A stretch of DNA of 64,000 nt from Ascidiella aspersa (taxonomy: Eukaryota), in the NCBI GenBank assembly GCA_963924565.1, contig OZ004610.1, positions 1,178,001 to 1,242,000 on the forward strand. The letters are read 5' to 3'. The notes beneath the pieces were generated by a model. It did no database searches, was not told the origin of the DNA, and was given only the letters and a program-made list of their open reading frames with translations. The position numbers were made by a program, and so were the translations under genes. Positions 12,101 to 64,000 of this stretch are shown piece after piece (the first letter of the stretch is position 1; each line of letters begins with the position of its first letter).

Positions 12101-15100
12101 TAACAAAATACACACGTTCATATATTTTTTGGTGTAGGTTTAACATTTAGGTGTGCAACGAGCCTTATGGTGTTTTTAACATTCCCTTACACTGTTTTTT
12201 ACTAACTTGAATTTTTTACACATTTCTTTAACTTTTAAACTAATTTATTCTACGTTCACCATTTTCAAGTTTCTAACATTTTAACATATTTTTATCGTTT
12301 TTAAACTTTTCAGTTGGGATCTTAATGGCCAACATGAGTAAGACTTTATCAAAATTAAAAATATTTTATTTAATTCAATACAATTTGTGTTGTTGCGAAC
12401 CATGATGCTTATTGTGAACTCTGATTAAAACCTTCAGTCACAGATATTCGAAAAATAATCAATTTTCTGTCGCTAATTCGTGTTTACGCCAATCTCTTTC
12501 ATGTAATTTTATGTAGTTTTCTCTGAAAATCATGCGTTTTTCACTAATTCATCCTTACTATTTTTTATCAACCCACATTATTTAAACAACTTGCAATCTC
12601 ATACATTTTAAAATGATAGCCATATCGCACTGACTAATTTTACAATAATTGAAAACATACTTAATTGAAAGTTATCATCTAATAATGTCATTCACAAGCA
12701 AATCCCGCCATTCAATTTTACATTTTACATAATTCATGCATAAATTATTTGGTTCTATATTTTCGTATTGTAAAAAAATACACTTAAATATTTTATATTA
12801 AACATAGTCTTTCTCTCCACCAACCAGTTTTATTTACCAGTATTTGAAAACTATACACCCTTTTTCATACATTTTTTTTAACAATTTATCCACCTATATA
12901 ACCCCTGCTTTACCCTATAAGTTAGCAAATGTTGGTGATAAGTTTTATATATTTTATTGTTTTATGTACGTCTAACGAACATTCCACTATTTCCAGATTC
13001 GGATCTTTGTCGAAAATCTCCAACAGCAACAAGTTTAAATCCCTCCCCGTACGAATCCGTCCATCCACCGCCCAACATTACAAGCATGTCAGTATAGTTG
13101 CTGAACCGATGGTCACTCGTAAGTAAACAACATACTGTATCTGGCATTTTATTCCAATACCGATACCCGATAATTTGGACAAAAAATATCGCGATTCGAT
13201 CCGCTACCAAATGACGTCATTAACTCATTACTATTCGCAAAAAGCATATTAGATGAAATTGAAACGCCTAAAAAACCTATTTCCAGGTCATTACGCCTAA
13301 AGTTGCTGTAGTGTTAGGAAGTTTAGTTAGCTCAAATTGCTATACTTCCATTATTTGATAAATTAAATTTCGTATTTTACCATTAGATTTTTTCTTGTTT
13401 TAACGGTGTCACTGTTTATACATGTTGGTTCAAAAATATGAATAATTAAAAGTAATAACTTTTGTTTTTTATCAAATTACATAAAAAGTTTAAAGATAAG
13501 GCTCATTCTTCAACGTATTTAGATTTTTTAATATTTATTTTTTTAACAAGCGATATTGGAGGTTTGATAAAATGTGAAAGAAATGATTTACAGCAGATAA
13601 ACTCATATGTGGCCTGTGCATCACATTATTGCACGGCACAATAATCTTTATGACACGTACTAACGATTGTGACGTAACACGCAGAAGCGTCACACATGGT
13701 TGACGACGCGGAGTTGAGTCAACAATCTTTACTTGAAGCAAATCTTTCAACCGAGGTTGGGATGATTGTGCTCGATATGATGTCAGAGTTCATGAGACAA
13801 TACAAGGTACAGTAGCAAACATACATGACATAGTACAAGGTACAGTAGCAAACATACATGACATAGTACAAGGTACAGTAGCAAACATACATGACATAGT
13901 ACAAGGTACAGTAGCAAACATACATGACATAGTACAAGGTACAGTAGCAAACATACATGACATTGTACAAGGCACAGTAGCAAACATACATGACATAGTA
14001 CAAGGTACAGTAGCAAACATACATGACATAGTACAAGGTACAGTAGCAAACATACATGACATAGTACAAGGTACAGTAGCAAACATACATGACATAGTAC
14101 AAGGTACAGTAGCAAACATACATGACATAGTACAAAATGTCCGATAAAATCGGATCGGAGCCGATACCTGATACCAAGTGGTAGTATCGGTACTCGACCG
14201 ATACTAGGGTGGTATCGGTGACGATCCGATATTGATATGGAAATTTTATCCATTATTTTGCGATCGAAGCAGTTTCATTTACATTAAAAGGTAAATACAG
14301 TAACAAATATAAAATTAGCAACTGGTGATATTTTAAATGTGCCTGCGCGTTTTTTCGTTTTGGAACTTTCTCCACCATTAGTTGTATATCAGCTTGTCTT
14401 ACACTCAATATACACTTACGTATTAGCAAATTAATTATCTGCAACATCGCCAAATACGTAGCGATGAATAGCGGCAAACTTTACCTAAAATGAACTTATT
14501 TTTATTTATTTGGGAAAGGTTACCCCAAGAATATCAAACTAAGAACTCAATAAGTAAACTGAATAACTAAACTAAATGGCAGAAATGAATAAATATAATG
14601 ACAAAACACAGTTCATTTGTTGATGGGCTCGTATATTACTTACAGCTAAAAACACGAGTGTGCTTGGTGTTACTCTGAATTTCTTGGATTAGTGAATTAA
14701 GTTGTATTGAATGGCATAACGCTGTGGACCCTATTCCGTTGTTGCTTTTACTTTCCAAAAAAGTGGAAACAACTTGAGTACCACATTCCATAGTAAATAA
14801 CTTGACTCTACATTTCATAGAACAGTTTTTGTAAATGATACATTTTATACAAAAAAATAATTTTCAGCATTAATTTAAAAAGTAAAATATATAGTTACAA
14901 AAATGACAAGACTTTAACCACTTGTAGTTCGAATTGAACTAAAAATAAAACAATATAATAAGTACATGTTAACAAAACTTCCCGTTATAATATCATTATT
15001 AAAGCAATGCGAATTCGTCAACGTTCTTGCTTTTTGTTAGACGGAAGTAGAAATCCAAGTCTCCCTTTATCACATTCAAGTCACGTTTTTTCGAAATAAC

Positions 15101-36100: not shown

Positions 36101-39100
36101 TAAAATCCTTCAAAACTTCTCTTTTTGTTAACATGTTTACAATATAACTTCTTATGGAGTACAAAAAATGTTAATTTCTTTAAAAATCCCTTCCTAAAAT
36201 CCATTTTTCAGAAATTATACTACCCAAAAAAATTCCTCTACTTCAAAATCCTCCAAAAATCCACTGTTTCTCTTCAGAGCACTTCGTTCCCAGTTGAGGT
36301 GAAGGACCTCTGTAAGAAGATCCGCACTGTTCTGATGGCCACAGCAGCGATGAAGGAGCACAAGGATGACCCTGAGATGTTGGTTGACCTCCAGTGTTCC
36401 CTGGCAAAGTCGTACGCAGCTACACCCGAGCTGAGGAAAACATGGCTGGAGTCGATGGCAAGGGTTCATCAGAAGCACGGGAACTACTCAGAGGTAAGAT
36501 ATTCTGTGTGGCCCAGAACGTGCGTCAATCCAGGGTTTTCGTTTGACGGGGACATGGCTCTTTTCAGGAGTAACTTCACAAAGTTATGTCAAAACTTGAC
36601 GTCAAAAAGTTCAAAGCCCAAACCTCAAAAGGTTTTTTTGTGTAACCCACGACGCTAGGTGCGTTTTCAGGCTATTTGTTTTTTTGTGGAAGGGGACGGT
36701 GGTTGTATTTTTCTGGTTGTTTTCTTGTTTTTGCTGCGATATTTTGAATTCTTTGACCTAAAGGACCACTGTTTGGCGAATACATTTACTTGTTTACTTG
36801 CACTAAACACAGAAGGAAGCTGTTAATTTTTTTCTGTAGCCAAGACCAGGCTCGGATCCAGGATTTTTGTTTGATTTTTTTGGAATTTTTTTAGACCTAA
36901 CTTCACAAACATACGTCAAAACCTGACGTAACAAAGTTACTTTGAACGCCGAAACCGTTATTTTTCGAGGATGCGTTGAGACTCACAACGCCTTTGGTTA
37001 AGAAAATTTACAAAATACATACTCGAATCATAGTTCAGATTCGACCGGTGCGCGTGTGAATATTTTATTAAGTCCATCAAGACATTTTTTACCTTTCAGT
37101 TTTAATTGTTTGTATTGTAAGGCTTTTTATCGGTCTCTAAAACAAATTACCGTGAAATCTTCCCCGAGATTTAAATATTCATGCTATGATTTTAGAAGTT
37201 TTATTTGCGTTTTTTTAACTCATTAATCCTAACTTTTAAAACATATAATCCAAGTTTTTTTGCCATGACAAAAATCCAAACCACTGTTTGCAAGAAGCGC
37301 AAAAAACCTCACGAGTATGAAAACAAACCTTCTACCGCTTGAACATTTTCTCCGTGCGTCATTTACCCTCTATTGACGTTGAAGTGGCGAATATTGCGCC
37401 AATACTGGCTCCGTATTGTTTTGTTTGTGTCCTTGAGTGTGTTGACGTGTCTGGAGTAAAGTTTGCGCATATAGCGGTTTGATTGGAGATATAATATATT
37501 TGCAAAGTTAAATAACGATAAAAAACTAATTCAAGCAATAATGGGTTTAAAATGCAAAACAAACAAACTCTTCAAAGCGTCATTGTCACAAATTTAAACT
37601 GCAAATTTCTGACAATAAATTGGGTGGTAAATTGATGGGAAAAAATTATTCAAAGATTTTTTGTTAAATTAAACTTTAATTTCTGTCCCATTGGCTTATA
37701 TTTAGATCAGGGTTGTCCAACTCAAACATGCCGGCGTGCCAATTTTTATCCTATAACTTCTTCCCGTGCCAAGTTTAGTAATATAATTCTTTCTAATAAT
37801 AAAAGCGTTTTTTTACAAATAATAAAACGTGGAGTTAGCAGGCTGACTTTTGCTTTTTGTTTCTTCACACCAAACTTTATAGTTATGTGAATGCTAGCCT
37901 CCACTACAATATAATGTTATAGTATTAGAAGTAATTGTTAGTTGTCGTGATTGCAGCGACTTTTTTTACCATTTTTTATTTGATTGCGTGCCACATTTGG
38001 CCACGCGTGCCGCTTGTTGGACACCCCTGATTTAGTTGAAGACAGTTTGTTCGTATATAATGTCGAACATATGTACAGATACTAACACATTTAAAAGTGC
38101 CTTCCTTAACTAATTGAAACATCTTGCCTTCTACACGGGGCTTACAGCATTTTAAATCCGTCCACTTAAAATTGTAGAGGTAAAAAAACTTTTTCACGAG
38201 TTTTTTTTCAAACGCTAGGTTTTGCAAACTCATTCTACGAAACATTAAAGGTCTATGAATAAATGAATACACTGTAGTGGTGGGTTTGGTGTAAAAAAGT
38301 AAATTTTTTATGGATCTTGTAAACTTGTTTTTGTTGTCTGGTAAAAATACCTAATCTACCAACATTTTTCCAGAAAACAATGTTAAAAACAGTCTTTCCA
38401 TAGTTTGGCTTATTTTTTTCCACCCATTAACCATTAATTTATCTTATGTATTGTTTTCAGGCTGCCATGTGCTACGTTCATATTGCTGCTTTGGTTGCGG
38501 AGTATTTGAAGAGAAAAGGTAAATACTGAGTCTTGGTTGGCGTGTTATATGTATAAAGTAGAAATTTTAAATTTTTTCTGAAAAATATATTGGAAACTTC
38601 AGACTAGAAATAAGAATGTTAAAATGGTTTTAATTTTTTTTTTAAATTTAATATAGAAAAGGAATATAACACCATTTTCGGTATTATGAACAAGACACAT
38701 TGTTATAGTCAGCGTTTTTTTTTTTTTATAATCTTTAAGGTTGTATTTAACAACACCCCCAAAAAGGCGTGTCTTGCTTTTCTGGGACTTTTAATAGATA
38801 AAACATACGGATTAAGCAAATGCCACCTCAGGGTTTCACCTTTGGATGCAACAGAAATGCAAAATTCGAAAAAAATATCTACGTCTGTCTTAATTGGCAA
38901 TATTCCAATTATGAAGTATTCAATTTATGTCCACTTTAACCTTTCGCTTATATCCAACGAAATTCAGGTTAACAAATCCCAAATTACAAAAAGCACCCAG
39001 CAATAAGAATTTGAATAGTTTCTATTTGCTTATTTTTCTCGTTTTGTTCGAAAAACGAAATAGGATTGTCGGATGATAACCAACTAGCATCATTTCGTTA

Positions 39101-42100
39101 TATAGAGTTTAAATGCACACTTCAGGGAATATTATATCTAGAATCATTTTATTAGAAAATTTACGTTTCTATACTGAATTATTGTGCGCGCCCTTCGAAG
39201 ATTTAAACCCACCAGGCCGTCGTTACACACAGTTTAACAACCAGTGATTTAGCTTATTGAGCCAACAAACACCCTTTTAAGCTTTGATAACGTTTAAGTC
39301 GCGAAATAAGCAACTGATCTATACTTGCAATAAAACATGTAAACAAACCAGGCCTTGCGGTTGGTTAAAAACAATTTGTTGTCTACGAACAACCTTTGAG
39401 CATTAATAACGTTTAAGTCTTGAAACTAACTTGACCTTTGATCGCTCCCGGATCAGAGATTTGGGATTCATCCTCGTCTGACTCTTCCTCCGTTTATTCC
39501 GGACTCTCCTCCGCTTTTGTCAACCACGTTCTTGGCTCCAGTGATCCGGAAGCTACTTCTTCCCAGGAAGAAAACACAAACTCGACCACTTGCTATCAGA
39601 GTGAGAGTGAGAGAATAATTTGCCCCACTGACACGGATGTTTTTGAGCCTGAGATGACCCGGATTGCGTTGCATGCGATTTGACTTTTGATTAAAGCAAG
39701 AAATTGATGTTTTGAATCTTTCGAGAATTTCTTTGATAATTTTGTTAACAAATTATTTCGAGCCGTTTTCAGTTCAACTAATGCAAATATTTAACCAGTT
39801 GAGTCGCACGAAACAGCCAAATTTTTTTTTAAATTAACATGCAGGTATATAAAAAACAATGATAATTTTGCAACATATGGATGCTGTAAATCCTGATGTT
39901 TATCGTGCCCACAGGTTCTGAATTGAATTAGGTCAATGACTAATTGTTCTTTAGTTAGCCTTACATTCTTACATTTGTGCACATCTTACTTTTAACTCAA
40001 TCGTTGCTGTTTAATTGATCAAACTTAGGTCGCTTAAAAAATGCTGTAAAAACGATACTAATAAGGTACACCGAAAGTCATCGCAGACTTAGCGAATCTT
40101 TTTGATCAATTATGCAAATGCAAGCAAGGCAGGCTAGAAAAACAACTCGCAGTGTACTTTGTTAGCTTTCTATTTTTAGTCACACAAAGAGATTATACTC
40201 AATCAGATTTCAACCTAAAATCAGTATAAAGCGTTTTGACTTATAATCTGAAGGTTGTCCGAAAAGCTATATTGATCGAAAAAAATAAAAATAAAAGTTT
40301 TTTGAAAAATGCCATAAGTTTTTTTAGTATAGAACTACTTGCCGCTCGTTTAGTAAAGTATCTTGATTTGTTGAACTAATTTGATTTCCAACAAATTTAA
40401 GAACTTTTTGATTTTGCATTTAGTTGGTTTTCATTTCATGTTCCTTTCAAAATCCGAGAATGAACTTGCAACAATTTTAATTTTACAATTTTGTCCGTAA
40501 AACCTCAGTTAAATAACTGAACGGAAAATGTTTAGTAAAATGTGACCTTTTTTATTCAAGAAACCCGATGCACTATTCAACAGCATTTGTTGATTAACCC
40601 AAAGGAAATTTGTTATAATTTAAGATTATGTGTAAAAAATATGCATAATCCCGCGATTATGCGTCTAACAATACTTGTTTTGCGTTGTGTTTGTGATCTG
40701 GAACATTTAATTTCTTTAATTTTTCGTCGTTGCTTGTCTGTGTATATCTACTGTATAAAGCAACTGTGGCTAAACTTTAGCTGACTAATGCTACATAAGT
40801 ATCTACCTTTAGTTAAACAAAAATTCAACATATAGTTTTATAAAGTCCGGTGGACAAAAAGACTTAGCGTAGCCTGAAGATTTATTTAATTTAAGTGTTT
40901 CAAGACCAATTGAAGACCTATCCAACAAATCACTGTTTTTACCAGGCGATTGCATACTTTGTGCTGGTTTAGACCTATGTACCACTTATTTTCCTCACAA
41001 TAGTTGTCCGTCTTTCAAAAAAATATCCGCTGCTTAAACATATAACGTTGTTTCCTAACCCATTTATTATTGTTATCCTTTAAAAAAACTTGGCGTTTTT
41101 ATTTCGTCTGTTTTCAAAAAGTATCAAAACACGTCTTGCAATTATAGTGAAAGCTACATAAAAACGCTTTTTTTTCATTGTGCTTGTCGGTCACTGTTTC
41201 GCTGACGCAGAATGAACAATAAAACTCAAAGTTTAAAAAATCGAGTGAAACCAGAATCATACATCAATTACGGAACTGACGATGCCAAAAAGGCGAAATA
41301 TTTTTTTCTTAAAAAATGTCTTATTCCGTTTTTACTCTGATTTTTAAATTTATGTTTTATTGTTAATCCTACAATATAGTTTTTCACCAGGTATACAGTT
41401 TAGAAACTACTAACCATAAGACATACAAGGCATTAAACATTGAGTTAATTTACACTGCTATTCCTTAGGTGTGATCGCCAAAGGTTGTTCTGCCTTCCGA
41501 GCAATCTCACCAAACGTTGAGAAGGAGGAATCCGCTCTCAAGGAAGATGTTGGGATGCAAGATGTGCAATATGACGAGGTAAGCTTATTCATCAACTCGT
41601 GTTTTGCCACCTTTTTGGCTCGCGGCACCCTTGCTCGTATTTTTGCTAAGTGGTTAACTGTAACGTTACAATAAACGAGATTAAAACAGCATAATAACTG
41701 TTGAAAGAAGGACAAAGGTTAAAACTACCTTTTTATTTTTGGCACTTTTATCGTACACAAAAAATTGTATCAAGAAACTTACCGATAGTCTCAAAGTTCA
41801 AAAGAGTAAAGACTTATTCGAAAATGTTCAAAATGCTACCTACTTATATATGGGCTTTGATATTCACTGTACGTCTATCTACAACCTCCAGCCATTAGCT
41901 TAAGATTTATTCAAAACGTCAAAATGACACATACTTCTCTGCATGGGCTTAGCTATTCTTACTACCACCTCCAACCATTATGCTCTTACTATTTGGCTTG
42001 CACCAACTCCTACTATGTGATTTTATTTCATGGCCAGGTATTATTAAAGAAATTTAATAGATAAGATTTCTATTTGAATTTAGGTTTAACAACAGAACAG

Positions 42101-45100
42101 ATAAAACGAAATAAAAGTTGATAATTGTTTTGCACTGATTGCAATCAACACTATTTCTTTCTCTTTCAGGATGTTCTCACCAGAATGCTCCACCACTGCG
42201 TTGAATATTTACAAAAAGCTGAACGATATGAGCTTATGGTCTACGTATACAACCTGGTAATCCCCTACTACGAGAAGAGGCGAGATTATGAGGTAAGAAC
42301 GCGATTGTTACGTCACACAAAGAACATGTTTAAAACAAGCTACATCGATGAAGTAGAATTGTGCAATATGTCACCTTAAAAATGTTAGTGACATTTTATT
42401 TTTATTACCTTTTCGCTTGCGTCTGAATTTTCGACGTTAACAGTGTGTTTATGATTAAGGCAAAAACCATTCACGAACAACATTTGATGATTAAATTGAA
42501 TCATGTGCTTAAGCCGTGTAATATTGTTAGTATGCAATTTATTTCACATTACTTGCTGATTGAGTACTGTTCAAAATAAAAGCTACAAGGCAGTGGTTCT
42601 CAACTCATTTTGCTGACTTGCGATAACTTTGAGCCCTTCAAGTATTTTAAAGAAATATTCTTGTAATTACCCTTAAACACTCCAACATTCGAAGCAGTTA
42701 TTATACGAACCACTTACTGTGCATAATATTCTGTTAAATGGTTTATTATTATTGAAACTTAATGATGTGCTCCGGCTTCATAATATATCTCAATGGAGTT
42801 AAAATATGTCGGATAAAGTTTTACTGGCTGAAGGTTTATATTGGTTTGCAAATATATTGCATTCCACTACGCATTCGGTTTCAAAGTGCTTTCCAAGCAT
42901 AAACCAAACACATTTTTCTTCCATTCGAAGAAAAGGTAAAGAAATTGTTTTAAAGATTGCCAATAATATCCAACAATATCTAAACATCATTTATTTTCAT
43001 TTCGCAAAAAAAATTATGGCAAAGTTCTTATATGTGACCGTTAATACCTACACTTCTATACTTCAGTCGCTGATCGGCATCTACAGCACGTTGAAGCAAG
43101 GTTACGAGAAGGTCACGGAAGTGAACCGGAACGGCAAGCGAATGCTGGGAACTTACTTCCGGGTTGCCTTATATGGGCAGAACTTCTTCGACGATGAAGA
43201 TGGCAAACAGTACATATACAAGGTAGATTTGCCTTGAATGGGGCGTTATTGTCAGTTTGAACCATGTTGGTTTGTGATATCGCTTAACGTTTTTTAAGAA
43301 TAGCATCATCGTCGAAATAAAACACAGTTTGAAATAAGAGAGCCGGGGCCTTATCCCTAAAGTTTAAGGTCTTATTTCGGTGAGTTTTGGACCTATTCTG
43401 ACGAATTTAGGACTTATTCCGTCGTTGCAATGTAATAGACTTTATTTCATAAACTATATGGTAGCCCTGAGCATCTTTCACTCCTGCTACAAATTTAAGT
43501 TACATCTAAAAGCTTCAACAATAATAATTTTACCCCCAGGAGCCAAAACTTACCCAGCTTTCCGAGATCTCCCAACGACTTCAGCGAATGTACGGGCGAA
43601 AATACGGGCAGGAAGCGGTCAAGCTTATCCAGGAATCCGGGAAGGTAAAAATATTTGCTTGTATTAAGCTTGGGAAAAAATATTCTACTTGTGAACACTG
43701 CCTGGGTTCGACTTAAACAGTAAAATATCGCAGCCAAGTCAATTTCACCAAAAATAAACACATTGAGAACAACTAATGTTAAAATTATTTGAACAAACTT
43801 CAGCCAATTTGTAGGCAAACTTAACACCCTAAGGCTAAGCATTTGTTTTTTTAATCTACGGGTCGCGACCCAAAATTAATACTTTTTTTCCTTTTTTCCC
43901 GCTTTAATGTTAACAAAACACTTTAATCTTTTAGGTGAACCGCAAGGAGTTGGACCCGAAGTTCGCTTACATCCAGGTCACCTACGTTCAACCTTACTTC
44001 GATGAACAGGAGAGAGAACAACGTAAGAACTACTTCGAGCAGCAACACAACATCAGGAACTTCGTGTTCGAGACGCCCTTCACACCACAGGGGCGCGCTA
44101 GAGGGGACATAGAGGAGCAATGGAAAAGAAAAACTATTCTTACAAGTGGGTTTCAGCTAATTACAAAAGAAAGATCGTTCTTACATGTGATTTTCGATTA
44201 AGAGTCTTGCTCCGCGCAAAGGTATATCTTTGCGGTATTTTTGTCCACAGATTTTCTCTCTAAGGGCCTATCTGTCGATGTTTCAACCACGACTCCGTGC
44301 ATAATATTTACAAAAGCTAAGTTAAATCATTACAAAAATACTAACCCATTAGGTGTCAATCCTTTGTTTTGACCGGAGGTTGTGAGTTCGAACCTCACCG
44401 CAGGCTAGTTGTTTTCTAAGCCTGACTTCTTGCACGGAAATCCTGATCAGGCTGATTGATTTCGGTAAAGTTTCTACTTGTCGCCTGTAAAGAAAAGATT
44501 AAATATTTGAAGTATCTTTAACCACTTCTGTGACATTTCTTTTTAGAAAATTTGCCACCTTTCAACCTCAAATAAAACCAATTTCGTTTTTTTCTTTGTT
44601 TTTTTACGATTTGCCATTTTGTACCTTATTTTAATTTCCTCGTGTGAACCTGCCGGGCTTTAAAATGTGACGGCCAGAACCCGTCAAAAAAAAAATAGTC
44701 TTGTCACTCTTGAAGCGGTCTAATTTATGTTTATGACGTCATTCAGCGGCCCACAGTTTCCCATACATCAAGAAGCGCATCCCTGTGACGACAACACGAA
44801 GCTTCGAACTCAAGCCAATAGAGGTCGCCCTTGATGAGATGACGTCAAAGTGCAACGAACTGGAACAGCTGGTCACGGCTGAGCGCGTCGACCTGAAAAA
44901 GCTCCAACTTCGTTTGCAAGGATCCGTTAATGTTCAGGTAAACATGAAGGCCCAAAATGTTCAGGTAAACATGAAGGCAATTTTCATAAAAAAATGTATT
45001 TATTATAAAAAAGGCTTTGGCGCCTTCTCTTAAATGTAGTTAGACTCGATTTCAGTTTGGCATTTTTTGGAGTAAAAACAACAGGCTTAGGATCTGATAA

Positions 45101-47220
45101 TGTTCAAGTTGCTTTGGCAAATAGTTTGTCTAAAACTAGCCGAAAGTCAATGGTGTTGAATGTCAAGTCAATTTTACCGGGAAACTAAGCTTTTACCTCT
45201 TAAAATATAAAAAAACATATTTCTTATAGCAAATACAATATTCTGAAAATTAAGAAAAAAAACTGTTTATGTATGTGAACAAAGATTAATGAGGCAAACA
45301 AGTCTAGACATTTTTTAAACGAGATTTCTTCACTGACAAGTAAATGAAATGAAACTCGTAATTTTTCATTGTTACGTTTCTATATTTGAAACTGGGTGTC
45401 AGCATTTTTGTGAAAGCGCTTTCAGGAGCAAGAATTGATAACTTCTATGTCATATCAACATTAATTAATGAAAGTTAAACGGTTTTTCCAAACTACGACA
45501 AATAGCTGCTTTCGTAGGATTAAATTGTTTTATGACGTGATCTCTAAATATTTTTTGCCGACCCTGGCCCACACAAACCGAATGTTTTTTATGGGTCCGC
45601 GCCAAAAGATTTAAGAATCCTTGTCTTCGATTTATCCGGCTTTTTATGGAAAAAGTTTGGTGATCGTGCCAGGATAACGATTAATCCATCGCTAATTAAC
45701 TATAATGATATTTTTTAACTTTAAAGGTCAACGCTGGTCCTCTTGCTTACGCTAAGGCTTTCCTGGAAGATGACAAGATCTCAAAGCACGCCGCAAACAC
45801 GACAGAGATGCTGCGCAAAGTTTACAGGTAACACTCGTCATAAGATCTCATCGAAACTGCGAGAGACCTGCATTTTGTCGGGCCAAAATGCTTTATAAAA
45901 ATTGAAAAAATTCGTGGCTAAAATTTCTAAATTTTATTGGTAATTTTTAGTTAAAAAAAAAATTATTCTTAACTGACATCTTGATAAAGACGTTCGATTT
46001 GAACTTGTACCGTTTTCAGTTAGTGTGACTCAAACTTCACTTTAGGCTTTGAAATTTATTATAAAGCTTCATTACATGCCCGTGCATAGTGTTCCAAAAT
46101 GATAACAAGACTTTGTATGTTGTTATATTTTTTTTACAACTCAGCCTATACCTCAGCTACTTTAGAACTGGATTTTAAATAGTTTATCGTAGTTTTGAAA
46201 ATGATAAAAAAAAACAGTCAAGTAAGTTAAAAACTCACGACTTATCCGCAGCTAACTCAAAAATCTCGCAAAAATTTGAAAAATCTCTTCACACAGGCTG
46301 CAATAAATAGTTAGTCAAGAATCTTATCTGATTGTTACCTCACAGGCGATTCGTGAACTTGTGCGGACGAGCGCTGGACATCAACGAGCAGATGGTGACC
46401 GCCAATCAGCAAGTCTACCACGAATCGCTGCAAACCTGTTACGTCACAATGGCAGGCGAGCTGTCGCAGATTCTACACGAGCAGGTTTGTGACGAATTAA
46501 TGTGAAATGATGTTTTACGAGACGCGTTATGTTTTTGAAATGTGTTAAAGACTGCAGGCAATCCTAAACTCTGTATAACCTTGCAATTTTGAAAATTGTA
46601 ATAAAATTCCCGTAAATGGTTTCCATTCTTAACCTGTCTTGGAAATTACATTGGAAGCAGAAGTTCATCGCAACATATACAGAGTTGGCACCATGTCTTT
46701 ATTTATGTTTAGCTTAAGATTTGTGTTTTTTTAAAATATGTTTTTTGTCGTTAAAAATTTATTTTTAAGCATTTTTAATGGTGTTGATCCATGTCATTTA
46801 TACTGTTTTCGAAAGGTCTTTAAAAACGTATAAATTTACTTTTTCAAAAAGTCTTTGAATTTTCTTCATAAATTTATTTGACAATTCCTGATTTGCACAT
46901 TCTAAACTTTTTCTCCGTCTTACTACAAAAAAATATTGTTATTTAAGATTTTTTTCAAAAGTTTTTAAATGTCTTTAAATTGAATTTTTTATAAATTTGT
47001 GTTGCGACCCTGATTTATCCATCCTGAGCTTTTCCCCCTAAATTTAATTGTTATTAAAAAAAAAAAATTTCAGCTTCTCCAAGATGACGATGACACGTTG
47101 AGCGTTGCGACATCCAGTGGTGGGTACGATATGGAATCGGTCCAAAGCCCCCAGCCCTCATCCAGTTTCACCCCCAAACGGCTCGTGGTCGGCTCCGTGT
47201 CCGACGCTTCCATTGTGTGA
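7..47220 (+). CDS. DOCK9: DOCK-D family (DOCK9/10/11, zizimin) guanine nucleotide exchange factor, 3' portion; 24 exons, ~1091 aa; 5' end lies upstream of the window
   Basis: GT-AG exons join in frame (3276 nt including stop). They give DOCK9-like motifs: [120 protein letters not shown]. Probably a co-ortholog of vertebrate DOCK9/10/11. Confidence 0.95.
556..661 (+). CDS. DOCK9: DOCK9-like exon ([35 protein letters not shown])
   Basis: ccctag acceptor, G|gtaaga donor; phase 0/1. Confidence 0.93.
829..1127. mobile_element. palindromic MITE with ~130-bp imperfect inverted arms; single-arm copies at ~10985-11100, 31038-31153 and 40066-40115
   Basis: ctagcccttctgaagctgctttttg...gaaagccatcgcagactc is mirrored by gagtctgcgatggctttc...caaaaagcagcttcagatgggctag. 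Confidence 0.85.
5651..5810 (+). CDS. DOCK9: DOCK9-like exon ([16 protein letters not shown]...KHVFDDR)
   Basis: ttctcag acceptor, AG|gtgaga donor; phase 1/2. Confidence 0.93.
6304..6427 (+). CDS. DOCK9: DOCK9-like exon ([28 protein letters not shown]...)
   Basis: cttcag acceptor, |gtgagt donor; phase 2/0. Confidence 0.92.
6518..6771. mobile_element. hAT-type MITE (degenerate)
   Basis: caaggggtagcaaac...gttggctacacctg termini; gtcgatcg subterminal motifs. Confidence 0.6.
6855..7011 (+). CDS. DOCK9: DOCK9-like exon, low-complexity linker ([15 protein letters not shown]...SVMSAI)
   Basis: ccccag acceptor, G|gtgaga donor; phase 0/1; open frame. Confidence 0.85.
7529..7647 (+). CDS. DOCK9: DOCK9-like exon ([11 protein letters not shown]...DKLEKHLDK)
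   Basis: tctcag acceptor, AAG|gtaagt donor; phase 1/0. Confidence 0.85.
8449..8627 (+). CDS. DOCK9: DOCK9-like exon (TLSVAS...[19 protein letters not shown]...IDFFDVL)
   Basis: ttatag acceptor, |gtaagt donor; phase 0/2. Confidence 0.92.
9437..9493 (+). CDS. DOCK9: DOCK9-like exon ([18 protein letters not shown])
   Basis: ttccag acceptor, AG|gtaatt donor; phase 2/2; matches the DOCK FxYxGK motif. Confidence 0.9.
9537..10070. mobile_element. MITE with tagggatg...catcccta termini and a ccgata-rich body; fragments at ~7690-7950, 13135-13215, 14137-14230 and 54026-54090
   Basis: Terminal inverted repeat and several dispersed copies in both orientations. Confidence 0.75.
9675..9877. mobile_element. 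hAT-type MITE nested in the preceding element
   Basis: TIR caagggtctcaaac/gtttgagacccttg; 8-bp TSD ctttagag/atttagag. Confidence 0.88.
10662..10685 (+). CDS. DOCK9: candidate 24-nt cassette microexon of the DOCK9-like gene (SIRHSGM)
   Basis: ttctttccacgtgtag acceptor, AG|gtttgt donor; symmetric phase 2, no stop. Confidence 0.5.
12314..12337 (+). CDS. DOCK9: candidate 24-nt cassette microexon of the DOCK9-like gene (WDLNGQH)
   Basis: aacttttcag acceptor after a long pyrimidine-rich tract, |gtaaga donor; symmetric phase 2, no stop. Confidence 0.55.
12997..13118 (+). CDS. DOCK9: DOCK9-like exon ([22 protein letters not shown]...MVT)
   Basis: ttccag acceptor, |gtaagt donor; phase 2/1. Confidence 0.88.
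13685..13806 (+). CDS. DOCK9: DOCK9-like exon ([40 protein letters not shown])
   Basis: acgcag acceptor, AAG|gtacag donor; phase 1/0. Confidence 0.92.
13801..14135. repeat. 33-bp minisatellite, 10 full copies (tacaaggtacagtagcaaacatacatgacatag)
   Basis: Direct inspection; only two substitutions seen (13961-13977); explains the three repetitive minus-strand ORFs. Confidence 0.98.
15719..15856 (+). CDS. DOCK9: DOCK9-like exon ([19 protein letters not shown]...LRLFLCK)
   Basis: tcacag acceptor, AAG|gtgggt donor; phase 0/0. Confidence 0.93.
15918..16210. mobile_element. hAT (Charlie-like) MITE
   Basis: TIR cagtgattcccaaa/tttgggaaccactg; gtgtgccgcg subterminal repeats; related ends at ~18720-18740, 28220, 41600-41630, 42591 and 47374-47641. 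Confidence 0.8.
16808..16990 (+). CDS. DOCK9: DOCK9-like exon (FPNVLFRG...YLLMRNNFE...RSHLQ)
   Basis: cttcag acceptor, |gtaagt donor; phase 0/0. Confidence 0.95.
19225..19338 (+). CDS. DOCK9: DOCK9-like exon ([38 protein letters not shown])
   Basis: gttcag acceptor, CAG|gtgaga donor; phase 0/0. Confidence 0.93.
19503..19628 (+). repeat. local duplication of an exon 3' end plus donor and intron start (copy of ~19300-19429)
   Basis: Near-identical ~125 bp. Confidence 0.95.
21827..22693 (-). CDS. nested antisense gene, large terminal coding exon (288 aa, [11 protein letters not shown]...[12 protein letters not shown]); uncharacterised disordered Ser/Lys/Arg-rich protein
   Basis: Open frame of 867 nt in a GC-enriched island. 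The ORF-track call 21827-22558 extends 45 codons upstream to an acceptor (gctaat...tttctgtcgcattacag). Confidence 0.75.
   Translation of the reverse strand, partial: KSRLKSFSPQESAIQEEEGRPASPASSEASNGQSSLSKHTSSSSSVGGIKNSFRSIKRRFSNRSNAQRSSPLMPRKNEDSSSLNSEEVKAHSEDEMPSNQYQKLPSNHQAKLPSNGKSPDYPLPMAYDQVESASCSVALSAPGKVSKPPISPGGKKGAGVHRARSATVSARDAHMIAPPVMVDGEVKHEYQYVSPARHVGKIGAKNDNGMAGIFRSSSFAKILGLSENERSSGGVGAGSGRSKEESPLKALYKATVLNECNNKENQNNNSSSRKDARRSIVIPALKVT
25035..25187 (-). CDS. nested antisense gene, probable first coding exon ([51 protein letters not shown])
   Basis: ATG at 25187 in a coding-like island. The phase-0 donor CAG|gtggcg joins in frame to 22693; a competing gtaaga donor lies 5 nt further on. 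An upstream acceptor ttttcag sits at 25350-25344. Confidence 0.6.
36278..36493 (+). CDS. DOCK9: DOCK9-like exon, start of the DHR2 region ([11 protein letters not shown]...[12 protein letters not shown]...YSE)
   Basis: cttcag acceptor, GAG|gtaaga donor; phase 0/0. Confidence 0.95.
37708..38029. mobile_element. hAT-type MITE
   Basis: TIR cagggttgtccaac/gttggacacccctg; TSD atttagat/atttagtt. Confidence 0.85.
38461..38518 (+). CDS. DOCK9: DOCK9-like exon ([19 protein letters not shown])
   Basis: ttttcag acceptor, AAG|gtaaat donor; phase 0/1. Confidence 0.95.
39457..39600 (+). CDS. DOCK9: candidate 144-nt Ser/acidic cassette exon inside DHR2 ([16 protein letters not shown]...TTCYQ); read-through would stop at 39683
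   Basis: actaac branch point at 39425, gatcag acceptor, A|gtgaga donor; symmetric phase 1; coding-like island within an AT-rich intron. Confidence 0.6.
41469..41578 (+). CDS. DOCK9: DOCK9-like exon ([21 protein letters not shown]...QYDE)
   Basis: ccttag acceptor, GAG|gtaagc donor; phase 1/0. Confidence 0.94.
42170..42292 (+). CDS. DOCK9: DOCK9-like exon (DVLTRML...KAERYE...EKRRDYE)
   Basis: tttcag acceptor, GAG|gtaaga donor; phase 0/0. Confidence 0.95.
43067..43222 (+). CDS. DOCK9: DOCK9-like exon (SLIGIY...[11 protein letters not shown]...YIYK)
   Basis: cttcag acceptor, AAG|gtagat donor; phase 0/0. Confidence 0.95.
43540..43644 (+). CDS. DOCK9: DOCK9-like exon ([35 protein letters not shown])
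   Basis: ccccag acceptor, AAG|gtaaaa donor; phase 0/0. Confidence 0.95.
43935..44145 (+). CDS. DOCK9: DOCK9-like exon ([22 protein letters not shown]...KRKTILT)
   Basis: ttttag acceptor, A|gtgggt donor; phase 0/1. Confidence 0.95.
44747..44937 (+). CDS. DOCK9: DOCK9-like exon ([14 protein letters not shown]...[12 protein letters not shown])
   Basis: attcag acceptor, CAG|gtaaac donor; phase 1/0. Confidence 0.95.
45727..45827 (+). CDS. DOCK9: DOCK9-like exon carrying the nucleotide-sensor Val ([13 protein letters not shown]...)
   Basis: ttaaag acceptor, AG|gtaaca donor; phase 0/2. Confidence 0.94.
46346..46484 (+). CDS. DOCK9: DOCK9-like exon ([15 protein letters not shown]...LSQILHEQ)
   Basis: tcacag acceptor, CAG|gtttgt donor; phase 2/0. 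Confidence 0.94.
47074..47220 (+). CDS. DOCK9: DOCK9-like terminal coding exon, ends ...SVSDASIV* (class I PDZ-ligand-like)
   Basis: tttcag acceptor, phase 0, TGA at 47218-47220; AATAAA hexamers downstream near 47663, 48528 and 48707. Confidence 0.88.
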   Translation, partial: LLQDDDDTLSVATSSGGYDMESVQSPQPSSSFTPKRLVVGSVSDASIV

Positions 47221-59305: not shown

Positions 59306-59949
59306 TGTGCCAAGGCAAAAATGTACTTTTATATTTTGCACAGAATGCATGATGCTCGCGATCCCATTGTCACTTCATGCTTAACTATTCCGCCACAATC
59401 AGTTTATGTCCCGTGCCTGAAGCCCATGTTAATCGCTGCAAGTTTGATGCTCGATGCTCGTTGGACACTTATTGTGAAAAGGACACCAGACGGTTCATCC
59501 TTGCCCAGAGAACATCCAAAAAAAAACCTAAAATGTAGTGACGTCATCGTTTTTGCTCTTTGTAGCTGTCGACTCCTATTTAGTTTTCTATTGAATTTTC
59601 TTTTAAAATTAAACAATATTAACCATAGATAATTACGTAGAAACATTGGGGATTTAGTTGTATTCAAGTTAACTATTTTATTTTAGGTTATTTTTTTTAA
59701 TTTTAGCAATAATACCAGAAGATAATTTTCTAGAAACATTGCGGATTTGTTTTTATTCAAAATCAATTCTGAATAGTTGCATTGTTTTTCATCAACACTT
59801 TCTGATGTTTTTATGGAATTATTTTGACCTTCGTCCAGGGAAAAACATAATGGTGGTTGGTTTATTTCTTAGATAAATGTCCCAACAAACCACAATCTAC
59901 CCTCTCTACCCCAACGCGTAAGCATAAATATAAACATTATCACAAGTTT

Positions 59950-60033
59950 ATGTTTCTGGTTGTTTTATTGATGATCACACGAATAAACAACGGATCCATG
60001 AAGATACTTCGTTGTTACTTCTCGGTGATTCAT
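59950..60033 (-). other. 3' non-coding exon of the peptide gene with AATAAA (59969-59964)
   Basis: tcttttcag acceptor at 60035-60034; sequence conserved in a second copy at 63900-63971. Confidence 0.7.
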
Positions 60034-60195
60034 CTGAAAAGATATAAAAGTTTAATGAATTATAAATAGACCCCCCCCCCACCCAAAAAAAGTTCGTTTA
60101 GTATCAATAAGTTTTGTAATACTGGTAAGACGAAATTAGTTTCTAAAAAACATTGCAAAGCGAAAAGTATTTTTTTAAATAAAACTAACCTTAAT

Positions 60196-60248
60196 TTATT
60201 CTTGCTCGTCTTGGTTTGTATCGAGCTCTTGTATTTCGGAGTTTTGAG
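60196..60248 (-). CDS. same precursor, coding exon 2: acidic propiece AQNSEIQELDTNQDEQE*
   Basis: ctttctttctag acceptor, phase 1 compatible, TAA at 60198-60196; donor AAG|gttagt after 60190. Confidence 0.82.
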
Positions 60249-60367: not shown

Positions 60368-60560
60368 CTTCTTGATCATAAACTCCATGCGGATGGCAAT
60401 AAGGAATTGAATACTTGCATTTGCAATAATTACCACCGTGCTTGCATTGGCAAAAAAAACCAATGGATTTGAGAACCTTGACTTTTTTCCAGTAACCCTC
60501 GCTCTGATCAACTAGAAGTAGGAGGCCAAGTAGAAGCGCCATCATAACAAACTTGTTCAT
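60368..60560 (-). CDS. secreted cationic Cys-rich peptide precursor (putative antimicrobial peptide), coding exon 1: MNKFVMMALLLGLLLLVDQSEG-YWKKVKVLKSIGFFCQCKHGGNYCKCKYSIPYCHPHGVYDQE
   Basis: Acceptor tttttcag directly before the ATG; hydrophobic signal peptide ending SEG; donor AAG|gtaggt, phase 1. Confidence 0.85.
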
Positions 60561-60643: not shown

Positions 60644-60680
60644 CTTGTTGTTTCAACTTGTCAGTTGTGTCAATCCAATA
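60644..60680 (-). other. 5' non-coding exon of the peptide gene (start approximate)
   Basis: AAG|gtaagt donor at 60643; 83-nt intron ends at the ATG. Confidence 0.65.
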
Positions 60681-60839
60681 TAAAACTGTGTGCCAACTGA
60701 GATATTTCAGCTCAATTTAAAGGTTTTAAACAATAAGCTGACTTTTGGTTCATGGAAATATTTGGAGAATCGTGGTTATTGTTTGATTAAACGCAGAAAA
60801 TTAACTGGGAATATTGCGGATTTTTTAAAAAATAAAATT

Positions 60840-61580
60840 ACCTTTGAATAGTTGAATTATTTTATATTATTCCTTTCTTTGAAATCTAAACAAAAATATC
60901 AGCGGATTATTTCTGAGAAACATTTCGGATTTGTTTTTATTCAAAGTCAATTTCAAATATGTGCAAATTTAACATTATTTTCTTTCTTTATATTGAACAT
61001 TAAATCAGCAGATAATTTCATTGAAACAAACCCGCAAACTTTCTATTTAAAGTTGATTTTGAATAAAGACAAATCCGTAATGTTTCTCAGTAATAATCCG
61101 CCGAAATTTTTGCTCAGATTTCAAAAAAAGGAAATAATGTAAAATAATGCAGCTATTCAAAATTAATTTTGAATAAAACAAATCCGTAATGTTTCTCAGA
61201 AATAATCCGCTGATATTTTTGTTTAGATTTCAAAGAAAAAAAAATGCAACTATTCAAAGTTGACTTTGAATAAAAATAAATCCGCAACGTTTCTTAGTAA
61301 ATTATCTGCTGATATTTTTGTTTAGATTTCAAAGAAAGAAAAAATGGAACTATTCAAAGTTGACTTTGAATAAAAGCAAATCCGCAACGTTTCAAGTAAA
61401 CTATTCTTATATTACTGTTGAGATTTCAAAGAAGGAAAATAATATAAAAGATTGCAACAATTCAAACTAGACTTTGAAAAACAAAAACAAACTCACAATT
61501 ATGCTAATATTATTGTTTAGATTTCAAAGAATAAAAATAATTTAAAACAGTGCAATTATTCAAAGTCCACTTTGAATACC
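60840..61580. repeat. foldback-type satellite of ~100-bp units (core palindrome tattcaaagttgactttgaata); orientation flips near 61025; more units at 59620-59790
   Basis: About 5-6 tandem units at 61040-61580 and reverse-complement units at 60840-61020 and 59620-59790. Confidence 0.85.
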
Positions 61581-62106: not shown

Positions 62107-63889
62107 TTTACTATCCTTCCTTCTTTTGGTGAAACTGGCCTGTTGTGCTTTCCCAAAGGGCAAAAATGACTTTAATCTCGGTTCTTTTCTTTTCTGCATG
62201 ATTTGAATCAAGGTGCGTTTTACAAAGCTTGGCTTCGTGACCGCGTTGGAAAGAGTTTAGATGCAAACCAGACCCTGCGGCAAACCCTCTCCTTCGTGTT
62301 CGATTACGAAGTGGTTGTTACCAGTGTGTTGAACTGTTTTTTTACTCTGGGCCTAGATTATACATCTTAATCTCTAGTTCCTATTTGCCCTAACACCCTA
62401 ATAACCCTAGACGTTATGTACCTTAAGCCCTAGAAACCTATTCTTATCCTTGGTGAACCCTTCGTTATCTTATTTTCATTTTATAAAAACACTTACAGTA
62501 CCTTACGCATTTGGGTATCTGAAAAACACCTGAAAGTCAAAGATTAAGGATTTGTTAGCTCCTGTAAAAAAAGGTTTTCCAAAATCACTGACTTCTTTGC
62601 TGACTTAACAGTCCAAACCAATCAAATATTCGGCAAATACAAAAGTGCAAACTGCCTCAAATGTTTCAATTTAGGGTTGTTTGGTTTTAGTTGGTTTAAT
62701 TTTTGTGGTTATGTATCAGACAAGTAAATAACACAAGACACAATTCTTTCGTGGGGGAAAAATTCCATCGTCTCATCGCATCGTGGTTATATTGCAATTT
62801 CTTAATGCAAAAAAAAACAGAATCAAAGAAGAAATGAAATCTCCAAGTAAATTAAGGGGTTTTATTTGGTTCTCTAAACTGGAGTTTTTGCACAAAGCGA
62901 GTTCGATAGAATAAAGTTCGAAGCCACTTTGGTCAACAACTTATAGTAGGAATGCAAATTGCCACAAACACACATGCTTGCCGACACTGTTCTGTTGGTC
63001 CAGAGCGGTGCAGTGTGCTTACAAGAATAAAGTGCAGTTTTAGGTGAAAAAGCTCTGAACCAACCCAAACACTTCACTACTTTCAAAATAAAAAATAAAA
63101 AGTGCAAAACATCTATAATAATAGAAGGCGTGGCTGTCACGCGAATAAGTTGATTGCGAATTTCGAATACAAGTTTTAAACTTCCAATACATTTAGAACA
63201 AGTTTGCAATAAACAACGTTAACTTCAGCCGTGGAGTAATATGGCAAAGTCCTGCAAAAATTGAACTTTAAAGAAGCTTTTGACCAAACGAGAGCTTCGG
63301 CAGGGAGACATCTCGTGTTTGGGTGAATTTATAAAAGTAAAAATTTGTTTTTAACTCGAAGCGCTCCTATCATAAAGCATTATAAAGTTATCCGTTCAGA
63401 TTCCAGTGGTTTTCAAGCGGTTGCCTTGCCTGGCATTTTATTGCTGCATATTCACGGGGGAAGGAAGAGAAGTAATGTGGGAATAAACTGCAAGGCAAGG
63501 CCTGGTTCTGCAACAAGCAAATCTCAATTACATCGGGCTTATCCCGATCGCAATCCGCCTGGAATTTCGCGCATAAACCTAATGCTGGTAACCGCCCTTT
63601 AAGGTAAGTTTACTTTAAAAATGAATTATATTTTTGGGAGTTTTGTGAAAATCTGTATCAGGGGTTTGCTAGGTGTTCACATTGACCGAAAGGTGAGGTG
63701 ATTTAAAAGTCTACTTTTCAATGTAAGTTGCATATTATGTTATTAAATTGACTTGTTAAATGATGGCGCTACAAGGTTCATCTTATATTTTACTTCCAGG
63801 TTTGGTTTTGTTTAAAGTCAAACTAGACAAGTTGCATTATTATTATTCATTCTCTTTTACATTTTAATAATACCAAAAGTACAATTCTA

Positions 63890-63971
63890 TTTTTTAGCTG
63901 TTTTATTGATCGGCACACGAATAAACAACGAATACACGAAGATACTTTGTTGTTGTTTCTCGTTGATTAGT
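63890..63971 (-). other. 3' non-coding exon of a paralogous peptide gene that continues beyond the window
   Basis: Colinear and highly similar to 59961-60067, including acceptor, AATAAA (63907-63902) and adjacent intron sequence (aatgaattataaat). Confidence 0.7.
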
Positions 63972-64000
63972 CTGAAACAAAATAAATGAATTATAAATTA

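What the first reader, a model, noticed from the sequence alone, without database searches (positions are those of the whole stretch)
63890..64000. Second copy of the peptide gene's last exon: edge of a tandem gene cluster
The last ~100 bp align colinearly with 59961-60067 at an offset of about 3.94 kb. Polyadenylation signal, 3' UTR, splice acceptor and intron end are all kept, on the same strand. This implies a diverged paralogue whose coding exons lie just beyond position 64000. Conserved UTRs around variable mature peptides are typical of defence-peptide clusters (inference).
Basis: partly seen in the sequence, partly recalled or inferred. Interest (0 to 1): 0.75.

Follow-up and report, generated by a model that had tools for sequence, protein, structure and literature searches.

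The report
Histidine-rich sea-squirt defence peptide gene
The window ends in the last exon of a second sea-squirt gene predicted to make a small secreted peptide; it belongs to an unnamed gene family whose members keep nearly the same signal sequence and untranslated ends but carry very different peptides, and this histidine- and cysteine-rich member is likely a metal-binding, acid-activated antimicrobial peptide.

Summary
Observation confirmed. Window 63890-63998 is the 3'-UTR exon and intron end of a paralogue (g2) of the peptide gene at 59.9-60.7 kb (g1): minus strand, offset 3,938 bp. In the genome beyond the window, g2's tail exon lies 0.1 kb on and its signal/mature exon 1.3-1.5 kb on. 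The host is an ascidian (CesA exon 94-96% identical to named ascidian CesA). g2 encodes a 22-residue signal, a predicted 35-36-residue peptide (14 His, 4 Cys, N-terminal Xaa-Xaa-His copper motif) and a short tail. The exon occurs 16 times, 14 in complete four-exon models on three contigs. Mature peptides are His-rich, Cys-hairpin, six-Cys or Pro/Gly. A 110-bp tandem repeat precedes 14 of 14 genes and hardly occurs elsewhere. A 23-gene Arg-rich sister family links the signal to a Ciona family with one tested antimicrobial member. Corrections: g2 is an old paralogue, not a recent twin of g1; the local array is two genes plus an orphan exon; positive selection is not generally shown. No database homologue, no activity test, expression untested. 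New variant of a known kind; interest 0.55.

The parts
63883..63971 (-). g2 exon 4 (non-coding 3'-UTR exon); true 3' end not known
63902..63907 (-). g2 polyadenylation signal AATAAA, 64 nt after the acceptor as in 13 of 14 gene models
63919..63930 (-). 12-mer invariant among the exon copies, shortly before AATAAA
   Evidence: permutation p 0.002 on 5 divergent copies
63914..63965 (-). predicted 3'-UTR hairpin just before the poly(A) signal; weak support
63972..64000 (-). 3' end of g2 intron 3 (127 nt in all, GT-AG). The rest of g2 lies outside the window on G000:C4, minus strand: exon 3 at 1242099-1242153 (tail and stop), intron 2 of 1,145 nt, exon 2 at 1243299-1243491 (signal and His/Cys-rich peptide, P0002), exon 1 at about 1243675-1243757, 110-bp repeat arrays at 1243884-1244431 and 1245031-1245254, and an orphan third exon-4 copy at 1245694-1245785
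60644..60738 (-). g1 exon 1 (5' UTR; start site not known)
60368..60560 (-). g1 exon 2: signal, Lys-rich five-Cys mature peptide, start of acidic tail (P0001)
60190..60248 (-). g1 exon 3: acidic tail and stop
59945..60033 (-). g1 exon 4 (3' UTR), AATAAA at 59969-59964
60844..61537 (.). 110-bp repeat arrays upstream of g1 (60844-60965 minus, 61043-61537 plus)
59596..59794 (-). 110-bp repeat units downstream of g1

Best explanation
The stretch is the predicted last exon of a four-exon ascidian gene (g2) predicted to encode a secreted pre-pro-peptide, and the released peptide is likely a histidine-rich, disulfide-bonded host-defence peptide that would bind copper or zinc and be switched on by acid. 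SHOWN: the gene anatomy in the DNA, the open frame, canonical splice sites, the family of 14 complete models, the sister family and the flanking repeat. INFERRED, in order: (1) the signal is cut after Ser-Glu-Gly, residue 22 (small residues at -3 and -1; no predictor was run); (2) the tail is removed before an Asp, as reported for styelins and clavanins, possibly with amidation at the last Gly; (3) the four Cys (Cx3C-x2-Cx3C) close a two-disulfide hairpin with His-rich arms; (4) the new N-terminus Tyr-Arg-His is an ATCUN copper site, and computed charge rises from about +2 at pH 7.8 to about +16 at pH 5, so the peptide would act in acidic compartments or tunic like clavanins. The family likely spreads and is reshuffled by unequal crossing-over and gene conversion between conserved exons and the 110-bp repeats, which keeps UTRs and signal alike while mature regions diverge.
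For: Gene models with GT-AG introns, intron 1 directly before ATG, phase-1 intron 2 and the stop in exon 3. Host is an ascidian: CesA exon 94-96% identical to CesA-type proteins of Ciona savignyi, Ciona intestinalis, Styela clava and Molgula. Signal / cationic / acidic order with Asp at the boundary is the Ciona, styelin and clavanin plan (PMC7387483). The signal matches the published consensus of the Ciona family that holds the active peptide KH.S921.1: g2 8 of 15 specified positions (17 of 2000 shuffles as good), two sister genes 10 of 15 (0-1 of 2000); the Ci-MAM and myticalin consensuses match g2 less well (116 and 240 of 2000). The 23 sister genes encode Arg-rich peptides, most followed by Gly-Asp and an acidic tail. 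Eight of 14 models have a predicted mature charge of +6 or more at pH 7.8. AlphaFold gives paralogue g9 a beta-hairpin at residues 11-16/19-24, whose register would pair C13-C22 and C15-C20 (pLDDT 76 over residues 11-20). Ascidian His-rich peptides are pH-dependent and metal-enhanced, and clavanin C has an ATCUN site (PMC5198042, PMC8424629). A second DNA run holds the g2 mature region with one listed change, which is synonymous. Mosaic genes: g6 and g10 differ from g5, g7, g8, g9 by 26-36% in intron 1, while g5-g6 differ by 5% in introns 2-3.
Against: No antimicrobial, metal-binding or processing data exist for any member. The link to the Ciona family rests on a short, Leu-rich signal consensus; the six Ciona sequences (Figure 1B) could not be seen, and g2's signal is 22, not 23, residues. 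g2's predicted mature peptide has no Phe or Trp and little charge at seawater pH, unlike membrane-lytic peptides. The AlphaFold model of g2 is uninformative (mean pLDDT 46), so its hairpin is read from Cys spacing only. g2's mature DNA shows no significant similarity to any of 9 paralogues tested (z from -0.8 to 1.3), so descent from the hairpin type is not shown. Its tail is short and barely acidic (-1.7). Seven Gly/Tyr-rich, structural-looking genes on C5 also begin Met-Asn-Lys after an acceptor, so that start alone does not mean defence. In the second run two of the five differences on the covering contig are not located.
Confidence: 0.6

Rival explanations
1. g2 makes a secreted metal-sequestering or cross-linking peptide (metal withholding, tunic or wound hardening through His-metal and oxidised-Tyr links) rather than a directly microbicidal one.
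For: 40% His and 5 Tyr in 35 residues, low charge at pH 7.8, no Phe or Trp. Ascidian phenoloxidase cells release DOPA-containing fragments that cross-link tunic (PMC5465252, passages). The family also holds nearly neutral Pro/Gly members that do not look antimicrobial.
Against: Most relatives are strongly cationic peptides with acidic tails. One small gene with a removable tail fits an effector better than a bulk structural protein (inference). In clavanins, activity does not follow complex stability and is not nutritional immunity (PMC8424629).
Confidence: 0.22
2. g2 is a decaying or silent paralogue, and its His-rich stretch grew by slippage after release from selection.
For: Long branch (0.4), tail stop five codons early, high-copy inserts in intron 2 and upstream, and many broken relatives: an exon-2-less gene, orphan exons, a truncated copy, frameshifted g12 and g14.
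Against: Open 64-codon exon, all six splice sites canonical, AATAAA at the family spacing, invariant 12-mer kept, signal with 1 replacement against g1 while introns differ at 40% of aligned sites. Synonymous-only listed change in a second run.
Confidence: 0.12
3. The repeated stretch is a dispersed repeat or mobile-element end, not an exon.
For: One copy is an orphan and copies lie on three contigs.
Against: 14 of 16 copies sit at the end of complete gene models and 1 more ends an exon-2-less gene; similarity falls upstream of the splice acceptor; contig depth over it is 58-115 against 10,000 or more for true repeats nearby.
Confidence: 0.02

Closest known systems
Ciona 'novel LCAMP family' with the 23-residue MNK signal, including KH.S921.1 (PMC7387483)
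   Same: Related signal consensus (8 of 15 positions for g2, 10 of 15 for two C1 sister genes); signal / mature / acidic order; Asp at the boundary and no dibasic site there; ascidian host.
   Different: The Ciona peptides were selected as Cys-free cationic helices. Here the mature peptides carry 4-6 Cys, or are His-rich or Pro/Gly-rich; the signal is 22 residues; Ciona gene structure was not seen.
Clavanins and clavaspirin of Styela clava (PMC10608444, PMC5198042, PMC8424629)
   Same: Ascidian, His-rich, predicted pH-dependent charge, His clusters, predicted ATCUN start as in clavanin C, tail beginning at an Asp.
   Different: Clavanins are 23-residue, Phe-rich helices; g2 is 35-36 residues, has four Cys, no Phe and 14 His. 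No sequence match found.
Myticalins of Mytilus (PMC5577615)
   Same: Nearly the same gene plan: UTR-only exon 1, intron right before ATG, exon 2 with signal, mature peptide and start of the anionic tail, phase-1 intron 2; hypervariable mature region; pseudogenes.
   Different: Mollusc; linear Arg-rich peptides; dibasic cleavage site; three exons (no 3'-UTR intron). Signal consensus match is not above shuffles (6 of 18, 240 of 2000), so analogy, not membership.
Beta-hairpin AMPs: protegrins, tachyplesins, polyphemusins (PMC13001179, PMC4410394)
   Same: Two nested Cys pairs; predicted hairpin in g9; g2's Cx3C strand spacing equals that of polyphemusin III (sequence seen in a search listing). 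The CxC-x4-CxC spacing of six paralogues equals protegrin-1 (recalled, not from a call).
   Different: Longer (35-45 against 11-25 residues), Lys or His instead of Arg, a fifth Cys in most, a two-residue loop in g2; no sequence or fold-search hit.
Sp185/333 (SpTransformer) genes of sea urchin (PMC5103432, abstract only)
   Same: Immune gene family whose members are each flanked by repeats proposed to drive duplication, deletion and conversion.
   Different: There the repeats are GA and GAT microsatellites; here a 110-bp unit nearly private to small peptide genes.

Membership tests
Ciona MNK-signal LCAMP family | 23-residue signal matching the published consensus | tested here: inconclusive
   g2 8 of 15 positions, 22 residues, 17 of 2000 shuffles; two C1 sister genes 10 of 15, 23 residues, 0-1 of 2000. 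Individual Ciona signals not seen.
Ciona MNK-signal LCAMP family | Cys-free, linear, cationic amphipathic helix as mature peptide | tested here: not met
   g2 has 4 Cys and computed charge +2.3 at pH 7.8.
Ciona MNK-signal LCAMP family | Signal, cationic region, anionic region in that order, Asp or Glu at the boundary | tested here: met
   the g2 tail is only weakly acidic (-1.7), g1 -8.7.
Ciona MNK-signal LCAMP family | Antimicrobial activity and haemocyte expression | not testable with these tools
   Needs peptide assays and RNA.
Beta-hairpin AMPs (definition of PMC13001179) | Single antiparallel hairpin closed by one or more disulfides | tested here: inconclusive
   g2 model unusable; g9 model shows a hairpin at moderate confidence; disulfides not measured.
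Beta-hairpin AMPs (definition of PMC13001179) | 11-25 residues, cationic, Arg-enriched, Cys pairs at least three residues apart | tested here: not met
   g2 predicted 35-36 residues, His-rich, inner Cys pair two residues apart.
Clavanins | 23-residue His- and Phe-rich alpha-helical peptide | tested here: not met
   No Phe, four Cys, longer (PMC10608444 table).
Clavanins | His-dependent pH switch and Cu or Zn binding | not testable with these tools
   Only computed: +2.3 at pH 7.8, +15.7 at pH 5; Xaa-Xaa-His start if cut after residue 22.
Myticalins | Exon plan with signal, mature peptide and start of tail in exon 2 and phase-1 intron 2 | tested here: met
   against PMC5577615 section 2.2 passages; an extra 3'-UTR intron here.
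Myticalins | Myticalin signal consensus, dibasic site, linear Arg-rich peptide, Mytiloida host | tested here: not met
Turgencins (for paralogues g3 and g14 only) | Six Cys in turgencin spacing with CXMAC and KKXGG motifs | tested here: not met
   g3 Cx3Cx4Cx10Cx3Cx3C and g14 Cx3Cx3Cx12Cx3Cx3C resemble but do not equal the spacing in PMC7024374; both motifs absent.

The most novel reading that the evidence does not exclude
One ascidian gene chassis (fixed signal, fixed UTR exons with a conserved hairpin at the poly(A) signal, and a private 110-bp flanking repeat) works as a recombination platform that mixes unrelated effector peptides. It carries the first disulfide beta-hairpin defence peptides of tunicates and, in g2, a copper-binding His-rich hairpin that joins the clavanin and tachyplesin modes in one peptide.
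Probability: 0.3. Interest if true: 0.75.

Novelty: new variant of a known kind. Interest (0 to 1): 0.55.

Why it matters
What is new is the content. Ascidian defence peptides in the passages read are helical peptides, covalent dimers, very short modified peptides or the six-Cys turgencins. This family adds predicted disulfide hairpins, a His-rich ATCUN-type peptide and Pro/Gly peptides on one chassis, none found in the protein databases searched, plus a 23-gene Arg-rich sister family (scanned only against Pfam, 2 of 23). A 2026 review counts only 25 natural beta-hairpin families, and the words tunicate, ascidian and sea squirt do not occur in it. The peptides are short enough to synthesise, so activity, salt tolerance and metal or pH dependence can be tested directly. 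The flanking repeat and mosaic genes make the family a small, tractable case of how invertebrate immune effectors diversify.

Tried and rejected
Homology: P0002 found no candidate among 5.8 billion proteins. The 15-sequence alignment gave 90 candidates, none at E 1 or better. The profile against 1.84 billion representatives gave 1 hit, a 406-aa repeat protein judged spurious. Pfam: no family at cut-off for 8 of 8 family members scanned or 2 of 2 sister genes. PDB sequences: 0. The ESM Atlas could not read the sequence. Structure: g2 model pLDDT 46; Foldseek with the g9 model gave no match at E 0.001 or better. Expression: no RNA holder listed, which is no evidence either way. Rfam on L016: 2 chance-level hits. 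A SECIS reading of the UTR hairpin was dropped by eye: no in-frame TGA in the open frames and no fitting helix. A hairpin that hides AATAAA was seen by eye but is the minimum-energy fold in only 1 of 6 copies folded. The UTR folds no better than shuffles in g2 (z 0.07) and three other divergent copies; only g1 and g3 reach z near -2. Descent of g2's peptide from the hairpin type by shifted Cys: not supported by DNA alignment. De novo cassette insertion for the Pro/Gly genes: no donor found (2 matches, themselves), and the divergent intron 1 favours an old 5' half joined to a recently shared 3' half. General positive selection: of 18 pairs computed, 10 align cleanly; mature replacement rate exceeded intron divergence at p below 0.01 in 2 (g5-g7, g5-g9, not independent, uncorrected), p 0.03 in g5-g8, and not in the other 7. 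NF-kB-like sites (recalled motif) within 1.5 kb: 2 of 14 genes, none for g1 or g2. Nesting in the DOCK gene: its last DHR-2 exon found is at 46.5 kb, so not supported (61 of 88 plus-strand ORFs scanned). Earlier notes of the scan: none near the finding or by sequence. Literature: nine searches showed no description of this family; the library lacks most subscription papers, and I did not see the original clavanin, styelin and Ci-MAM cloning papers.

Full report
1. Observation. The last 120 bases of the window match 59942-60067 at 79% identity (E 3e-23). The local score is 107; the best other place in the window scores 29. Read on the minus strand, both copies hold an intron end with TTTCAG, a non-coding exon and AATAAA 64 nt after the acceptor. 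The offset is 3,938 bp. The edge copy lacks 7 nt of the pyrimidine tract and differs at 12 of 70 exon positions.

2. The gene past the edge. The window is G000:C4:1178001-1242000. The neighbouring DNA holds the predicted gene, g2. In window coordinates extended past 64000: exon 1 about 65757-65675, exon 2 65491-65299, exon 3 64153-64099, exon 4 from 63971. All three introns are GT-AG. Exon 2 has the same length as in g1 (193 nt). It encodes a 22-residue signal that differs from g1's at one residue, then a wholly different peptide (P0002): 35 residues with 14 His, 5 Tyr and 4 Cys spaced Cx3C-x2-Cx3C. g1's peptide is Lys-rich with five Cys. g2's stop falls five codons earlier than g1's, 20 nt before the last junction. 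Its mature DNA has one match in the genome, itself. A second DNA run of the same organism code covers the mature region with one listed change, synonymous; two of the five differences on that contig are not located.

3. Host. A genome search found a cellulose synthase exon, 94-96% identical to CesA-type proteins of four named ascidians. The organism is therefore taken as an ascidian. The two genes lie between a DOCK gene (DHR-2 exons up to 46.5 kb) and a C2H2 zinc-finger-like ORF.

4. The family. The 3'-UTR exon has 16 copies. Fourteen end complete four-exon models on C2, C3 and C4; one ends a gene that lacks exon 2; one is an orphan 3.8 kb upstream of g2's copy. Three of the 14 show a lesion: g12 and g14 look frameshifted, and g8 has AA in place of AG before the ATG. 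A truncated copy lies on C5. Mature types among the 14: His/Cys (g2), five-Cys cationic (g1, g4, g5, g7, g8, g9, g11, and the Lys-rich g13), six-Cys (g3, g14), Pro/Gly without Cys (g6, g10) and the damaged g12. Median identity over 91 pairs is 0.97 for exon 4, 0.91 for the signal, 0.66 for the tail exon, 0.58-0.68 for the ends of introns 2 and 3 (null 0.53) and 0.48 for the mature region (null 0.49). In a tree of the non-mature parts g2 is a long branch; g1 groups with g4, g11 and g12 at other loci (95/96). The join of g2 with g13 may be a long-branch artefact. So g1 and g2 are neighbours but not recent twins.

5. How the family diversifies. A tandem unit of about 110 bp lies upstream of exon 1 in 14 of 14 models and downstream of exon 4 in 10 of 14; g2 has only a weak downstream remnant. 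Of 87 genome matches, 86 are at family loci (such counts are lower bounds). It is absent from the 40 kb of the C1 cluster examined (of about 210 kb) and from the first 59 kb of the window. The order orphan exon 4, repeats, g2 copies the spacer of the six-gene array at C4:408-426 kb, which suggests a lost upstream neighbour (inference). Genes g6 and g10 are mosaics: introns 2-3 of g6 differ from g5's at 16 of 318 sites, intron 1 of g6 and g10 differs from that of g5, g7, g8 and g9 by 26-36%, and the mature region does not align. Recombination or conversion with a breakpoint in the conserved end of exon 2 would explain this. It may also explain part of the UTR identity: g1 and g3 differ at 0 of 70 exon-4 sites while their introns differ at 47% of aligned sites. 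Selection likely also acts on the UTR: among five divergent copies a 12-nt run is invariant (permutation p 0.002), and a pattern built on it recovers the same 16 places as the similarity search. A consensus hairpin ends just before AATAAA: 95.7% of cells pair and 2 pairs change on both sides (9 of 500 shuffles), but the covariation score is not above shuffles (94 of 500) and g2 alone folds no better than chance. I count it as a weak lead. An excess of replacements in mature peptides appears in one comparison only (g5 against g7 and g9).

6. Link to known peptides. No database search found a homologue. A protein search of the genome gave two weak hits on C1. They belong to a sister family. A start-codon pattern gave 47 matches (control 0): 22 tandem genes on C1 plus one on C4, 12 of the family above, 7 Gly/Tyr-rich genes on C5 and 5 others (38 of 47 translated, six more were already modelled, three were not read). 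The sister genes have a 23-residue signal and Arg-rich peptides with no, one or two Cys, most followed by Gly-Asp and an acidic tail. The two read in full show, by eye, the same four-exon plan but an unrelated UTR. PMC7387483 describes six Ciona precursors with a 23-residue MNK-type signal; one, KH.S921.1, inhibited three bacteria and kept activity at 500 mM NaCl. Two sister signals match that consensus at 10 of 15 positions, g2's at 8 of 15. This makes common origin likely but not proven. The same paper states that styelins and clavanins are cut before Asp, which gives the tail boundary used here.

7. Mechanism. Shown: anatomy in the DNA, family, repeat, mosaicism. Inferred: splicing as modelled, secretion, removal of signal and tail, two disulfides, an ATCUN start, and a charge rise from +2.3 at pH 7.8 to +15.7 at pH 5. 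Clavanins are the precedent for His-dependent, acid- and metal-enhanced killing in ascidians. The hairpin is predicted only for g9; the g2 model failed. The weak tail fits a peptide that needs little charge masking at neutral pH (inference). Main rival: a metal-binding or cross-linking peptide without direct killing. Lesser rival: a decaying gene.

8. Verdict. g2 fails the defining tests for the Ciona LCAMP family (Cys-free helix), for beta-hairpin AMPs (length, composition) and for clavanins, so it is filed under none; it is likely a relative of the first and likely works like the third.

Papers seen: PMC7387483 (whole-text parts 1-2 of 5, Discussion, passages, supplement searched; Figure 1 alignment not visible, which bears on the signal comparison); PMC13001179 (part 1 of 8 and a term search; tables are images); passages only of PMC10608444, PMC7024374, PMC5465252, PMC9966394, PMC5198042, PMC5577615, PMC4410394, PMC8424629; abstract and outline of PMC5103432; listing only of PMC6315362. 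The botryllin gene-structure supplement was not read. Recalled, not from a call: protegrin-1 Cys spacing, the -3/-1 signal cleavage rule and the NF-kB motif. Gene labels g1-g15 are mine.

Noticed in passing
G000:C1:8892053-9103076 (L091-L112) and C4:27718748 (L128): Tandem array of 22 genes (plus one elsewhere) for Arg-rich pre-pro-peptides with a 23-residue MNK signal, most with a Gly-Asp boundary and acidic tail; eight encode the same mature peptide; six have two Cys. Strong antimicrobial candidates, no Pfam hit for the two scanned.
   Followed up: partly
G000:C5:20498816-20535951 (L121-L127): Seven genes for secreted Gly/Tyr/Ser-rich repeat proteins that also start Met-Asn-Lys after an acceptor; look structural (tunic-like).
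   Followed up: no
window 59596-59794, 60844-61537 and all family loci: 110-bp tandem repeat nearly private to this family; one stray patch at C3:1698808-1699004 with no family exon in the 8 kb read. Could be a promoter array or a recombination substrate.
   Followed up: partly
L024:3563-3694 and L025:5441-5572 (g6, g10): Pro/Gly-rich, nearly neutral mature peptides, 72-75% GC, on mosaic genes; no donor sequence found in the genome.
   Followed up: partly
L022:140-337 (g3), L031:5170-5373 (g14): Six-Cys members with turgencin-like but not identical spacing on the same chassis.
   Followed up: partly
window 60368-60560 (g1) and g4, g5, g7, g8, g9, g11, g13: Five Cys in the mature region; an odd Cys could form covalent dimers as in dicynthaurin and halocidin (PMC10608444).
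   Followed up: no
G000:C4:551181-552492; C4:406342; C4:366153, 411671, 423541, 1255900; C2:13934805; C5:33174963: Debris of birth-and-death evolution: a gene with exons 1, 3, 4 but no exon 2, a start-less signal exon, several orphan exon-1 pieces and a truncated copy.
   Followed up: partly
L016:5099-5153 (g2 exon 3) and L028 exon 3 (g11): Both genes stop at the same homologous codon, five codons early, and both have since lost the old stop.
   Followed up: no
window 36104-46502 (+); L017:629-1714 (+): Flanking genes: DOCK-family GEF with DHR-2 lobes A-C, and a 361-codon C2H2 zinc-finger-like ORF about 6 kb past the window.
   Followed up: partly
window 13737-14147: Tandem repeat of about 33 bp that is open in several frames.
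   Followed up: no
L016:7431-8025: Very high-copy element (summed contig depth above 100,000) inserted in the repeat array upstream of g2.
   Followed up: no
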